Assembly: GCA_040222015.1 (NCBI GenBank)
Contig: JAVJWO010000064.1
Location: 1-47,685 of the forward strand
Reading direction: 5' to 3'
DNA: 47,685 nucleotides
From: Coleofasciculus chthonoplastes F2-STO-03
GTDB lineage: Bacteria > Cyanobacteriota > Cyanobacteriia > Cyanobacteriales > Coleofasciculaceae
A program made the position numbers. Below, one piece after another: positions 9,001-18,000 of this stretch. Position 1 is the stretch's first letter, and each line of letters begins with the position of its first letter.

Positions 9001-12000
9001 CAGGAACTAGCGATCGCTCTTTTTTTCTCAAATTTAGTAGCGATCGCTTTTTAGCTGCATTTTTGAGCAGCACATGCAGCATTTCTGTTCGCCGTACTGC
9101 TCTGGATAGTCCAAAAGAGTCAATGATCTTGAAGAAATAATTAATTTAATTGTTGCTAGGAAAAGGCTTATATACTCTTTTAATTTGAATTAAGGGTATT
9201 GTTACTTTTCCTAAAAACAAAGAAATAAATACAATTGTTGTTTCTATAATTAAGTGATAAAAACCTTGAAATAATAGAGCAAATACCAGAACATGGTAAT
9301 GGGATGAGGCAATTCAAAGTCTAATCCCAACCGAAACAACTTTACTTAGGAGTACATTTCCAAATGGCTAAGATTACAATCTCTGATCTGCATCCTGCTG
9401 AACTAAAATATGAAAAAATGTCTGACCTAGAACTGAAATCTGTCGTAGGAGGAAAAGCCCCAAAGTATAGCGTAAATCTTAAGTGGAGTCAAAAAGAGGG
9501 AGTTTCTGTTGGGTTGACTATCAAGTTTTGATAAAAACACAAGAGATAGTAGCACGAAAGAGAAACGTATCCTCTTAGGATTAGGAGGAAATCAGCCAGA
9601 AATTATCCTTAATTAACGCTTTGACGTTTTGGAAATCTTATTCTCTTTCAACCCAAGGTTTATCTTGGGTTGATTTTTTGTGATTCTTTTTAAGGGGGAG
9701 ATGAAGGAGGCAATTGAGGGTGAACAAAAGAGTAAAATGATTTAATTATTTTCTCAAATCATCCTAATTTTTTAGTTAATACACTCTTTTAATTAATTTG
9801 AGCTAAGGGTATCGTTACTTTCCCAAAAAACAAAGAAATAAATGTAATTATTCTTTCTATAATTAAGTGACAAAAACCTTGAAATAATAGAGCAAATACT
9901 AGAACATGGTAATGGGATGAGGCAATTTAAAGCCTGATTCCACCCAAAATAACTTTACTTAGGAAAACATTTCCAAATGGCTAAGATTACAATTTCAGAC
10001 CTAGCTCATTCCCCGAATTCCGAAAGCTTTTTTACCAAGCTAAATGAGTTAACTGATCCAGACATGGCTTCGCTAATGGGTAATATCATCGGGGGCACCT
10101 GCACAACCACCACCACTTACCGCCGAAACGGTACCATCAAGAAGGAGGTTAAGGTATGTGACTGCTAGTAATTACCCTTAATTAACGCTTTGACGTTTTA
10201 GAACTCTTATTCTCTTTCAACCCAAGATAAACCTTGGGTTGATTTTTTATGATTATTTTTAATTAAAGGAAACTATGAATGAGGCAATGGAGATACAAAA
10301 AAAAATAAAATACTAATAAAATCGTATTATGTTTTGGTATTAAGAAAATAAAAGCATTGAATTATGGGAAAAAATACCAGAACGAAGATGCTTTATAAGT
10401 CATAATAAAAATCCTCTGTAAGGACGTAGACCAGCAAAGCTATCTGATATTCATCAGATAGCTTTTTATAGTGATTAAAAGATAGAGGCGTTGTTAGAGT
10501 TCCATAACCTACGCCGCTTTGCTGTTTGATTCTATACTAGCAACAACTGTAGTTTTCTCAATTTGCTGCTTCCGCCACCCAGCAAATAAATCTGACAGAA
10601 TTTGATGGCGCAGCTTGTCATCCAACTCCGGCTCAATAATCTCCTCAACCAAAATTAGATGTACTCCCTTAGATGTCACTACTGGCTTAAGCACCTGCGG
10701 CGGTGTAGCCGCAAAAACAGCAGCAGAAATTTCCGGCTTCATATCCTTACGCTGTACCATCCCCCGATATCCCCCCTTTCGGCGTAACTCTGTATCCTGG
10801 ATATATTGATGAGCCACCTCATAGAAACTCATCTCGCCTTCTTGAATCGCATAGAAGAGTTCCATCGCCAAATCTTCATCATCCAGGACAACTTCATACA
10901 TAACAACCCCAGCATAATCCAACTGATGTTCAATAAAAAAGGGTTCAACTTTGTCCGCAAATAGATGGTGCGCCAACTTCCCAGAGATGACATTGTTGTA
11001 AATTAATTCTTCAAAATCATCTAGAGAAAGACCATTTTTTTGTAACCATGCCTTAGTTTCCTCCGCACTGTTAAGTTTGCTGATTAACCGTAGGCTGTCT
11101 GCTGCTTTCTGAAGTTCCTCTGTCTCCACTTTAATCCCTGCTTCCGCTGCAGCATCCGCAATAACCTTGCGAGTAACAATTTGCTCAACTATCTCAGGAA
11201 TCTGACACGATAGCTTAACTTGATGCAGAATATCCTCATGGGAAATCGTAATTGCTTGGGACATGATATACTCCTCAATTCTAACGTTTTACGGGAAGTC
11301 TATAAACTATTGTAGAGACGCGCCATGGCGCGTCTGGGCGGGTTTAGTCACATCTTGGTGAAACCGAAAAGATAGTAGTAAAACCCGCCCCTACATTACC
11401 AATATTCCATGCGCCACATACCGTAAAAACTAGGCTCCTCAATTAGGTTATTGATTGTCTATTTCAACCAGCCAATGTAAATCGGTTAATTTTCCGGTAA
11501 ACCCGAATCCATAGCCTCAAAACTCTAAAGTTCAAACCCCCCTTTTTGCAACTTCTTAAACGGGTCAAGAATAAAATCAATGATCCGACGCTGGCGGATA
11601 ATCACCTCAGCCGTTGCTGTCTGTCCAGCCGCCAAATCTATACAACCTTGTGAACTTTTAATACAAGTCTGTTTCAACTCAATTTCCAAGTCAAACGTCG
11701 CTATCTGTCCCTGCTCAGTTTCCGTCACCTTAGACGTAGGTGAAATCTGACTTACCGTTCCTTCAACTACTCCGTAATCTTGGAACGGATAAGCATCAAA
11801 CTTCATCTTGACCGGCATTCCTTTACGCAGCGTTCCACTTTCAGATGTCGCCATCTGCGCCCGCAGGATAAGGGAAGCATTCTTGGGTGCAATCTCAGCA
11901 ATTAATGTACTCGGTTGTACTACCGCCCCAGTGCGTTGAATCGGTAACTGAAAAATCGTCCCACTTACAGGAGCGCGTAACACTCGTTGTCCTAACTGAA

Positions 12001-15000: not shown

Positions 15001-18000
15001 CAGTCCAAAAATCTGAATCAAAACCGAAGCAATCAACACCTCCAGCAATACCAGTTGGTGGGGTTTCACCAGCTCAAAGAATTGCCAGAAGGGGGTGCTA
15101 GCTGCTTGAGCCTGTTTGAGCAGGGCTGTAGGTTGGAGTAATAAGGTATAGCCTGTCCAATCCGCTTTAAATTGGGCATAAGTTAGGCTGCGCTGACCAA
15201 TAGCCGGATCAGCCACAATCACGCGATCGCGAGTCACCTCATAAACGACAATATAGTGCTTCCCTTGCCAATGGACAATCGCAGGTAACCGTTGTTCAGC
15301 CAGTTTATTCAGACTGGCTTTTACCGGACGAGTCGTAAACCCAATACTCTCAGCAGCGGCGGCTAACCCGCGCAGTGACGCCCCATTGCGGTCAACATTG
15401 GCAATATCCCGCAGGCGATTCACACTAAACCGCTTCCCCCAATAGCGCCCCACCATCACCAGACAAGCAGCACCGCAATCCGAGGCACTTTGCTGGGCAA
15501 AGAAGGGATAGCGTCGGGTGATTCGCCCCCACCACTGACCTACTTTTACGGTAGGGTTGGGGAAGTACGCTCGACTTATCTGGGACTGGGGTTTTTGTTC
15601 CTCAGGCGGTTGAGACATGACAACTGTCTCAGACTGACTGGGAAATGCTGTAACCGAGGGGTTGTCCGTTGATTGGCTAGTGTTTGCCCCCCTCACCTGT
15701 GAATCTCGGCGTACTGCGGATGAGTACAAATGCTCTTTTATCGAAGGATACTGGCGAATGAGCGATCGCAAAACATCACCGGGAATATAGCAAAGCCTCA
15801 ACTTAACGGAAGCTCTAGCCGCATAGGGGTGAAATTCCTCCTCTGGAAACAGAGTGAGTTCACCAAATGATGCCCCTGTCTCTAGTGACGTGATTAAATC
15901 ATCTGTACTATTGAGCAGTCTGACTTTACCCGCCAAGATAATATAGAGTCCCACCGTCGCCTCTGCTGTCTCCCAGAACCGTTTACCTGGGGTTGGCTCT
16001 AGAATTTGAATCTGCTGAAAACAGTTTGAGAGTTCCCTATCTGAAAGAGCCTGTCCCAAGGTTTGGGCAAGTTGTTGACCAAGCTGTTGCTGGGAAAAAG
16101 TTGATGACTTCTGAACCATGAGTTAGTTACTGGTCTTGATAAAATTGAGTGACCACGGGAGTTCGGACTCGCAAGCAGATTGCAAGTCCCCAATTCTGAT
16201 GCGAGAGCCTTGAGGGGTTTCCAACTCCGTTACCTCTGGTGCTGAATCAGATTTGGGTCGAGTGGAGAGTCCCATCTTCTTGAGCAAAAGGTTAACATTG
16301 CGATCGCTCACCTCAATCCCTAACTCTTTCGCCAGATGCTTACTTAACCATTGCCCGGTCCATCGCCCAAAGGAATAGCCATAATCACGAGGACTATGGC
16401 TCACCAGTTCTTTCAACCGCTCTAAATACTGATCATTCACCGTCTTCGGGCGACCAATCCGACTCTCTTGCCATTGGTGTGCCATTCCCGCACGGGCGAC
16501 GTGTATCCAATGCCGTGCGGTTGCTGGACAACACCCCAAGGTTTGACAAATTTTGGCTTGAGATATCCCTTCATCTGCCAGCAACATGATTTCAATCCGC
16601 TGGCGGTACTTTTCCGGTAAATCCTCTTGCAGACTTTTTTGCAGCAGTTTGCGCTGAAACGGTGTTAGATGCTGACCCGATGTTTTCACCGTCATCTCTC
16701 CTTCTGAAATTTCAGTTATGGCGAATCACTGAGCGTCAACCATCAAGGTGATGATTTCCCCTTGCCGATACAGTCACAAGTTGGTTTTATTTGTCACAAT
16801 AGTGACTTATAAGTCACTATTGTGACAATTATTTCGCTAGTTGTCAATCTAGTTGCGGCAATAGACGAATACCCCTAAAGACATAGGAAAGTATGTCGGC
16901 TAGAATTGTGGAGAATTAAAAGTCACAGCCAACTCGCTTGAGTAACAGTCACAAGTGTGGATGAGCTAGCCAGCGATGAATCAGAATGAATCAAAAGGAG
17001 TTCGAGGAAGCATTTAATCGGCTAACACCCCGACGCAAGCAAGTGTTACGACGAGTATTGGCGGGTGAAACCGATGGCGCGATCGCCAAGTCTCTGAAGA
17101 TTGGAGAAGCGACAGTCAGAAAACATATTGAACGGACTTGTCAAACATTAGGCTTAGACAATAACCATGCCGATGAGCGCCGCTACAAACGCTTGGAAGT
17201 CGCTAAGCTCGTGGCAAAGTACAAACCTGAACTACTCACAGACTCCACCCCTGTCACTGCCAATGAAGTGACACCCGAAACAGCCAATGCCCAAGACACC
17301 AGTGATGCTGAGAGAGGGGATACCCAAACCCTTGAGCCGACAAAATTAGCTGAACCCTCTCAAGATGAACCTGATGTCATCTGGCAGTTACCCGCCATGA
17401 CCCCACCCGTCCGCGAGCAGCTCCTCAAAACCTTCAGCCAACTGATTGACGAGGAACCCAAACGGAAGCAAATTGCTAAAAATCTCAACAAAATTGGCTA
17501 TGAACGCTACCTAGACGGGGACTTCCAAAGTGCTGCATTTTATTTACAGTGGGCAATTGAATTTAATCCCAACCTAGGCGGCGCTCACTACAACCTGGGT
17601 TCAACCTATGAAAAGCTGGAAGATGTTGAGCGTGCCTACCACCATTACCAAACAGCAGCCAACCACAAGGGACGCGCCGCCGATGCTGCCTTGAGTAACC
17701 TGGCTCGTTTAGACATTTTGGCAGGAAACAGCGCTACAGCGATTGAGCGACTCTTACCAAGAATAAACCAGGTTAAGGATGCTTCGGTGAAATCCTCTGT
17801 CCACAAAAATCTGGGTTGGGCGTATCTGCTGCAAAAGCAATATTCTGACGCCCAATATCACCTGCAAAAGGCAATTGAATTAGATAGCGAACGTGCGGCT
17901 AGTTACTAGTTACTGTTTACTGGCACAAGTGCAAGACATTCAAGGGGACGAGGAAAGCGCTCTGGCATCATGGGCAAACTGCCTTACCTATGACACCAGA

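What a model noticed while it worked through the whole genome (the two positions that open the first line are those of the whole stretch)
10509..16695. IS630 transposase DNA-binding domain domesticated as the lead gene of cyanobacterial RiPP type I exporter operons
g02078 and its paralog g00380 (C15:1849-2466) are stand-alone IS630-type double-HTH proteins without the DDE domain, each the first gene of a cNMP-peptidase-ABC / HlyD / rotamase exporter operon beside HopA1-kinase RiPP genes. The conserved position across families indicates a domesticated transposase domain serving these clusters, not an IS remnant.
Evidence so far: NCBIfam IS630 match covers only profile positions 1-115 of 299; the transporter starts 4 and 15 bp downstream. 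14 of 61 genomes have it at E<=1e-30, 51-69% identical; in 14 of 16 loci from other genomes it is in the exporter operon (12 directly before the ABC gene, 2 after HlyD).
(Added by a program. Inside this text positions count along the whole contig: contig position 1 is position 1 of the stretch shown here. "Call 12" and the like, gene names such as g00115 and contig names such as C1 are that model's own, and its searches are not shown. The text may have been shortened before it was handed on; [...] marks where a part breaks off. The agent that wrote the report below was given it as the finding of a first reader that could run no searches.)

Follow-up and report, generated by a model that had tools for sequence, protein, structure and literature searches.

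The report
Transposon-derived regulator of peptide-export clusters
Many cyanobacteria have kept only the DNA-gripping part of a jumping-gene enzyme and placed it in their peptide-export gene clusters, where it most likely controls the peptide genes and carries a tail that imitates the peptides' own address label.

Summary
Observation confirmed. Window 16123-16695 (-) encodes an IS630-type double-HTH protein with no DDE domain and no IS ends. It leads a C39-ABC/HlyD/parvulin operon. In a genome sample, 60 of 70 fetched family genes stand directly before that ABC gene. They co-diverge with it (rho 0.93) under purifying selection, so this is a host gene, not a remnant. Two new features. (1) A conserved I-x-I-x-D-L motif in the disordered tail matches the start of the cluster's precursor leaders (profile score 18.2; natural controls at most 13.9). 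(2) A 23-bp palindrome, GAC(A/T)AA-N9-TT(A/T)TGTC, lies about 130 bp before precursor genes, not generally before the exporter operon (13 of 34 held-out promoters, 1.7 in shuffles). One of its bases follows one recognition-helix residue (Arg with G 37 of 42; Leu/Gln with T 9 of 10; two lineages at most, with exceptions). Best reading: a cluster-specific transcription factor, probably an activator, possibly tuned by leader-mimic docking. No binding is shown. An earlier scan note (e1-3127755) saw such an HTH in another genome without following it up.

The parts
16123..16695 (-). IS630-type double-HTH protein (190 aa): HTH1, GRPK AT-hook-like linker, HTH2, disordered tail; no DDE domain
16183..16203 (-). 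Leader-like tail motif, residues 165-171 (I166-x-I168-x-D170-L171)
   Evidence: I168, D170, L171 invariant in 23 rows; 79 of 86 dereplicated tails; dN/dS 0.20 vs 0.52 in the spacer
13366..16119 (-). cNMP + C39 peptidase + ABC exporter (long type)
   Evidence: C215 and H288 invariant in the N-terminal alignment
11525..13126 (-). HlyD adaptor
   Evidence: TIGR01843 above cut-off
10509..11264 (-). Parvulin/SurA-like rotamase protein
9364..9531 (+). Double-glycine precursor 1, leader begins with the I-x-I-x-D-L motif
9977..10168 (+). Double-glycine precursor 2, tandem duplicate region of precursor 1
2916..3119 (+). Precursor-like ORF of the same leader family, directly before the kinase
3161..4336 (+). 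APH-type kinase (LanK-like, below the LxmK cut-off)
4431..5552 (+). HopA1-family protein (LanY-like lyase by analogy with PMC9486802)
9222..9244 (.). Candidate operator, centre -131 from the precursor 1 start
9134..9156 (.). Second candidate operator, centre -219 from precursor 1
9835..9857 (.). Candidate operator, centre -131 from precursor 2
   Evidence: this promoter was in the training set
2804..2826 (.). Candidate operator, centre -101 from the precursor before the kinase
   Evidence: this promoter was in the training set
16813..16835 (.). Weaker candidate operator about 129 bp before the HTH gene, overlapping the 38-bp perfect palindrome

Best explanation
The protein is the DNA-binding half of an IS630 transposase, kept as a host gene in one subclass of cyanobacterial peptide-export clusters, where it acts as the cluster's own transcription factor. 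Shown: it is intact, inherited with the exporter, conserved, and has no catalytic domain or IS ends; a positioned 23-bp palindrome precedes many precursor genes. Inferred: the two HTH motifs and the GRPK linker bind that palindrome. Inferred: because the window's site ends 21 bp before a TTGAAA hexamer, it more likely activates than represses precursor (and kinase/lyase) transcription. More speculative (about 0.3): the tail motif docks in the leader-binding site of an operon partner (exporter N-terminus, parvulin or kinase), so that precursor leaders compete with it and tie transcription to export or processing capacity.
For: (1) Both HTH regions and the linker have dN/dS 0.09-0.14 over 45 disjoint pairs. 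(2) Weak fold matches (none at E<=0.001) are led by SETMAR-DNA, KorA, Pax and Mos1 DNA-binding domains. (3) An isolated two-HTH fragment of the cyanobacterial IS630 transposase ISY100 binds its site at about 10 nM with a full footprint (PMC2170065, passages). (4) The palindrome: width 23 gives information content 12.2 vs 8.2 shuffled; 13 of 34 held-out promoters pass the 95th percentile of AT-rich controls, vs a mean of 1.7 in shuffles. (5) A matrix from 42 sites of other genomes ranks five window sites 58, 141, 149, 240 and 1005 among 7.72 million positions. (6) With the base masked during site choice, helix residue 136 Arg goes with G in 37 of 42 sites and Leu/Gln with T in 9 of 10. (7) Precursors of this leader family occur in 27 of 32 genomes with the gene and 1 of 36 without (handles hand-picked, kin not independent). 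(8) Four precursor promoters in three clusters whose protein has lost HTH1 score only -0.9 to 4.3. (9) Tail-to-leader profile score is 18.2, against at most 8.7 in 150 column shuffles and at most 13.9 in 89 natural windows; the motif is in 0 of 11 IS-like ORFs.
Against: No binding, expression or genetic data. Only 53 of 100 first-in-run precursor promoters have a site scoring 7 or more, and only 4 of 22 in the newly fetched second clade. The two C15 precursors have no site at the usual position. The covariation rests on two lineages at most: the tree does not force two origins, and one site is near-identical between them, so shared descent is possible. Four of six Leu-type Nostocales loci keep G at -130 (L011-L013, L015), and the L011 row changed site when the search window was widened. 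The exporter operon's own promoter is barely enriched (10 of 83). The palindrome does not resemble sampled IS630 TIRs. Three of the close-class exporters lie in genomes with no family gene found. The tail resemblance was spotted by eye before testing, and all tails are one homologous family.
Confidence: 0.6

Rival explanations
1. The gene is a domesticated DNA-binding regulator, but the precursor palindrome belongs to another factor encoded elsewhere, and this protein's target is different (for example its own operon, clade by clade).
For: About half of the promoters lack the site. Exceptions to the covariation. Promoter conservation and the base change could both be inherited with the cluster.
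Against: The site's base differs between clusters in step with the linked gene's helix residue. Sites were not seen in clusters of genomes lacking the gene (6 promoters, best 7.8) or in the HetP-type exporter class, nor where HTH1 is lost.
Confidence: 0.2
2. The protein works mainly at protein level, as an adaptor or decoy that binds the exporter or parvulin through its leader-like tail; DNA binding is secondary or tethers the machinery.
For: Variants with only HTH2 plus tail still lead the exporter operon (L353, L354, L357). Tail-less members are mostly away from exporter genes (4 of 5). Tight gene coupling to the ABC. One natural HTH-parvulin fusion (L033). HetP-like proteins carry a similar K-I-x-D-L tail (PMC3140520).
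Against: Recognition helices are more conserved than the tail. The gene also leads kinase or parvulin operons, or stands alone beside precursors. The L033 fusion has lost the tail.
Confidence: 0.12
3. The fold is shared with IS630 but the family is an old host regulator, not derived from a transposon.
For: The family is a separate clade on a long branch in an unrooted quick tree; nesting inside IS630 is not shown. No TIR-like target.
Against: The next-best matches are all IS630 N-termini. The family was found only within one class, while the IS630-like rows in the tree are more diverse.
Confidence: 0.1
4. The gene is an IS630 remnant or a non-autonomous element with a preferred insertion site.
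For: Automatic annotation often says transposase. Split IS630s also give stand-alone ORFs of this size.
Against: 0 of 153 with DDE, 0 of 69 with terminal repeats, co-divergence rho 0.93 over 87 loci, mostly open frames.
Confidence: 0.02

Closest known systems
IS630 transposase N-terminal domain (NF033545; ISY100, PMC2170065)
   Same: Two HTH motifs joined by an AT-hook-like basic linker; profile positions 1-115 match.
   Different: No DDE domain, no TIRs, vertical inheritance, an added leader-like tail, and a candidate site unlike the sampled TIRs.
Domesticated Tc1/mariner-type DNA-binding domains of eukaryotes (SETMAR, Pax paired domain)
   Same: Same bipartite fold class (weak Foldseek rows). 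That these are transposase-derived regulators is recalled, apart from titles.
   Different: Bacterial, stand-alone, tied to one biosynthetic cluster type.
Cyanobacterial bacteriocin clusters, groups I/II/VI, with long-type C39 transporter, HlyD and SurA (PMC3140520)
   Same: Same exporter trio; a related KIXDLXYLE motif was noted there in HetP proteins.
   Different: The main text has 0 hits for helix-turn-helix, HTH or regulator. I did not assign the group number.
Class V lanthipeptide LanK/LanY systems, cyanobacterial type-B precursors (PMC9486802)
   Same: APH kinase plus HopA1-family gene beside Ser/Thr-containing precursors.
   Different: The kinase scores 94 bits against a cut-off of 315. 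No regulator or transporter is discussed there. Many clusters with the HTH gene show no such pair.
HetC/HetP of Nostoc PCC 7120 (PMC10986499, PMC4133259)
   Same: cNMP + C39 exporter architecture; HetP-like proteins have a folded domain followed by a leader-like tail.
   Different: The HetP-linked exporter class (53-57% identity) had no family gene nearby in 9 of 9 wide loci. I did not compare HetC itself.

Membership tests
IS630 insertion sequence | N-terminal double HTH | tested here: met
IS630 insertion sequence | DDE catalytic domain in frame or in a frameshifted second ORF | tested here: not met
   0 of 153 family genes; no DDE hit in the own genome with four queries
IS630 insertion sequence | Terminal inverted repeats about 1.2 kb apart | tested here: not met
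   0 of 69 family loci vs 12 of 20 IS-like loci
IS630 insertion sequence | Dispersed near-identical copies at unrelated sites | tested here: not met
   Two copies at 61% identity, both before an ABC gene; contrast G213 with 10 matches
Domesticated transposase gene | Fixed locus and vertical inheritance | tested here: met
Domesticated transposase gene | Purifying selection without mobility | tested here: met
   (IS genes also show low dN/dS, so this counts only with the rows above)
Domesticated transposase gene | Descent from within the transposase family | tested here: inconclusive
   Unrooted quick tree; the careful search did not finish
Cluster-situated transcription factor | Conserved positioned site at cluster promoters | tested here: met
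   present in about half of the promoters
Cluster-situated transcription factor | Direct binding and effect on transcription | not testable with these tools
   Only covariation
Long-type C39 exporter cluster (Wang 2011 groups I/II/VI) | cNMP-C39-ABC plus HlyD plus rotamase | tested here: met
Class V lanthipeptide cluster | LanK above family cut-off and cyclisation chemistry | tested here: inconclusive
   LxmK 94 bits vs cut-off 315; HopA1 Pfam met; product unknown

The most novel reading that the evidence does not exclude
An IS630 DNA-binding domain acquired a copy or mimic of the precursor leader's first strand and became a substrate-sensing transcription factor. It is held by the leader-binding site of the export or processing machinery, displaced by real precursors, and acts at a palindrome before the precursor genes. 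This would be a feedback switch built from a transposon part and a RiPP leader.
Probability: 0.2. Interest if true: 0.9.

Novelty: new variant of a known kind. Interest (0 to 1): 0.74.

Why it matters
Domestication of cut-and-paste transposase DNA-binding domains as transcription factors is mainly a eukaryotic story (recalled); my searches found no bacterial IS630 case or any description of this gene (open-access library only). The family is widespread in one cyanobacterial class and is often auto-annotated as a transposase. It gives a named candidate regulator, a candidate operator and a one-residue specificity test for a large group of uncharacterised RiPP clusters, so it may be a handle for switching them on. 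The leader-like tail also points to the short signal that these long-type exporters or their partners read, an open question for HetC (PMC10986499).

Tried and rejected
(1) The 38-bp perfect palindrome at 16791-16828 as family operator: it occurs in only 6 of 141 upstream regions, all with the divergent LuxR-TPR gene. (2) A shared motif before the exporter operon: about 1 bit or less above shuffles. (3) Operator inherited from the IS630 TIR: not significant, 564 and 817 of 1000 shuffles as high. (4) A double-glycine-like Y-G-A/H-G-G after the tail in Nostoc proteins: it falls where the HTH frame overlaps the ABC start and is that start read in another frame. (5) Programmed frameshift or read-through into the ABC: gaps run from -185 to +229 in all three frames. 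A search among longer proteins gave 3 sporadic fusions among 8000 scored candidates, weak evidence either way. (6) Complex prediction of the tail with the exporter N-terminus and parvulin: no answer, score 0.17, mark 0.32, three chains, unlike the calibration; no evidence for or against binding. (7) Expression: four runs held as contigs gave flat cover, intergenic DNA included, so nothing on transcription. (8) NCBIfam has no model for these leaders or for the tail. (9) The sigma-70 scan did not call the precursor promoters, so TTGAAA as a -35 element is by eye. (10) A search for more Gln-type lineages returned only one locus identical to the query. (11) Swapping matrix positions 3/21 to A/T lifts window ranks to 4, 6, 11, 64 and 201, but the swap was chosen after seeing these sites, so it is not counted.
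Full report
1. The locus. The minus-strand run at 10509-16695 is HTH (190 aa), cNMP-C39-ABC (917 aa), HlyD (533 aa) and a parvulin-like protein (251 aa). The HTH matches IS630 profile positions 1-115 of 299, below cut-off. Its stop is 3 nt before the ABC start. The genome has one paralog, at C15, 61% identical and in the same arrangement. Convergent on the operon are two double-glycine precursors (9364, 9977). Further left are a third precursor (2916-3119), an APH kinase and a HopA1-family gene. The closest named relatives are Coleofasciculus records at 97-99% protein identity.

2. A family, not a remnant. A profile of 23 members gave two separate score bands in 301 genomes of the phylum: 81 matches at E<=1e-44, a few fragments, and IS630-like matches from about 1e-31 down. 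A class-level sample had 24 of 201 genomes at E<=1e-35, including other orders. The 50%-identity library has 88 representatives at E<=1e-30, some of them fragments. Of 17 further loci from other orders, 10 show the gene before the ABC gene. Starting from the exporter: of 16 fetched loci of the closest ABC class (63% or more), 12 have the gene directly upstream. Three of the other four are in genomes where none was found. The next class (53-57%, HetP-linked) had none in 9 wide loci. DDE sequence was found near 0 of 153 family genes and 14 of 20 IS-like controls; terminal repeats at 0 of 69 and 12 of 20. Distances among 87 HTH proteins track those of the linked ABC (rho 0.93, as for ABC with HlyD; permutations at most 0.19). 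dN/dS is 0.14, 0.09 and 0.12 in HTH1, linker and HTH2. The quick tree puts all family rows, plus one long-branch row, on one side of a branch with support 93 and the IS630s on the other. Three short IS rows were dropped, the careful search did not finish, and the tree is unrooted, so descent from IS630 is the simplest reading, not a result.

3. Structure. The model has two helical bundles and a low-confidence tail from residue 149 (mean pLDDT 68). Foldseek found nothing at E<=0.001; the top rows are SETMAR, KorA, Pax and Mos1 DNA-binding domains. In ISY100, the two-HTH fragment alone binds its site at about 10 nM (PMC2170065, passages), so loss of DDE need not cost DNA binding.

4. The tail imitates the leader. 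After a variable spacer, the tail keeps I-x-I-x-D-L: 79 of 86 dereplicated tails, 65 of 70 sampled genes, 0 of 11 IS-like ORFs. dN/dS there is 0.20, against 0.52 and 0.39 on either side. Short double-glycine ORFs chosen without this pattern mostly begin M-A-x-I-x-I-x-D/N/E-L (17 of 39 by a strict test on the first 14 residues, more after correcting starts). The two profiles align over 11 columns with score 18.2; 150 column shuffles reach 8.7 and 89 windows from eight neighbouring families reach 13.9. I noticed the likeness by eye first, and the tails are one family, so this is one observation. HetP-like proteins have a similar tail, as Wang et al. noted (PMC3140520, passages). Variants that have lost HTH1 keep HTH2 and the tail, and three of five still lead the operon. 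What binds the motif is unknown.

5. A candidate operator. Nothing shared was found before the exporter operon. Before first-in-run precursor genes a positioned motif appeared. It is best described as a 23-bp palindrome, GAC(A/T)AA-N9-TT(A/T)TGTC, centred near -130. In 34 held-out promoters, 13 passed the AT-rich control threshold, against 1.7 in shuffles; that set includes six promoters from a gene-less genome or the other exporter class, none of which passed. Five of the six best sites in the window lie at cluster promoters (two of these promoters were in training). A matrix from 42 sites of other genomes ranks the five within the top 1005 of 7.72 million positions. The window's site ends 21 bp before TTGAAA, which suggests activation; the promoter itself is not mapped. 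Limits: 53 of 100 promoters have a site, only 4 of 22 in the second clade's new loci, and the C15 precursors have none at the usual place.

6. Link between protein and site. Residue 136, in the second recognition helix, is Arg in 229 of 251 aligned rows, Leu in 16 and Gln in 4. With base 21 masked during site choice, Arg goes with G in 37 of 42 sites, and Leu or Gln with T in 9 of 10. One row without a helix was set aside. Arg reading guanine is established protein-DNA chemistry (recalled). Against: at most two lineages, one origin not excluded, and four Leu-type Nostocales loci with G at -130. I give no p-value. Precursors of this leader family were found in 27 of 32 genomes with the gene and 1 of 36 without. 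These handles were hand-picked, and two gene-less genomes have another leader subtype that also contains the motif.

7. Mechanism. Most likely (0.6): a cluster-specific transcription factor acting at precursor promoters, more likely an activator. The tail is a docking motif, and competition with leaders would give feedback (0.2 for the full switch). Rivals: another factor owns the palindrome (0.2); a mainly protein-level role (0.12); remnant (0.02). Non-transposon origin (0.1) concerns ancestry, not function.

8. Literature. I saw passages, not whole texts, of PMC3140520, PMC4558948, PMC12267927, PMC9486802, PMC10986499, PMC4133259 and PMC2170065, and listings only for the other papers. None of the passages mentions this gene. 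Ten searches found no description. I did not open supplements; Tables S2-S3 and Figures S1-S2 of PMC3140520 and Figures S5-S6 of PMC9486802 may show the gene or these leaders. Subscription papers are not covered.

9. Verdict. Real, and apparently undescribed: a domesticated IS630-type domain with a leader-like tail and a testable operator. New variant of a known kind; interest 0.74.

Noticed in passing
window 16770-16960: 38-bp perfect palindrome (16791-16828) within the genome's only 300-nt window holding six or more GTCAC words, between the HTH gene and a divergent LuxR-TPR gene (16986-17909). Seen only in the 6 loci that have that LuxR-TPR gene; two LuxR paralogs lack it.
   Followed up: partly
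window 6909-8910: Nif11 precursor with two Y-G motifs, radical SAM above the TIGR04103 cut-off, and a 75-aa ORF at about 8683-8910: fits the spliceotide reading of earlier notes.
   Followed up: partly
window 6182-6866: 87-aa double-glycine ORF with an internal I-x-I-x-D-L motif, and a Cys-rich 146-aa ORF without family match; the pair recurs in other loci.
   Followed up: no
window about 5780-6060 (-): Broken partial duplicate of the parvulin gene.
   Followed up: no
L033:7953-8996: Single ORF fusing the double HTH to the C-terminal part of the parvulin, tail lost; possibly a deletion product.
   Followed up: partly
L009-L015: Nostocales loci where the HTH gene abuts the kinase-HopA1 operon, with near-identical tandem precursors.
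   Followed up: partly
L353-L357: Half-size variants with only the second HTH plus tail; three lead the exporter operon, two stand elsewhere.
   Followed up: partly
L350, L352; proteins P0001, P0002: Tail-less members beside CHAT-domain genes, and fusions of the domain to a helical signalling-type protein or a PAS-GGDEF protein.
   Followed up: no
proteins P0016, P0119, P0121, P0136: Proteins with 3-9 tandem IS630-type HTH units and no DDE domain, one named as Prevotellaceae; possibly separate domestications.
   Followed up: no
L151-L170: A cyanobacterial IS630 group with ends beginning TAAGCT, about 1190 bp apart.
   Followed up: partly
window 659-2239 and 18452-23698: EAD4-AAA_35, EAD4-TPR and TPR-CHAT genes flank the cluster; AAA_35 and CHAT genes recur near other family loci.
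   Followed up: no
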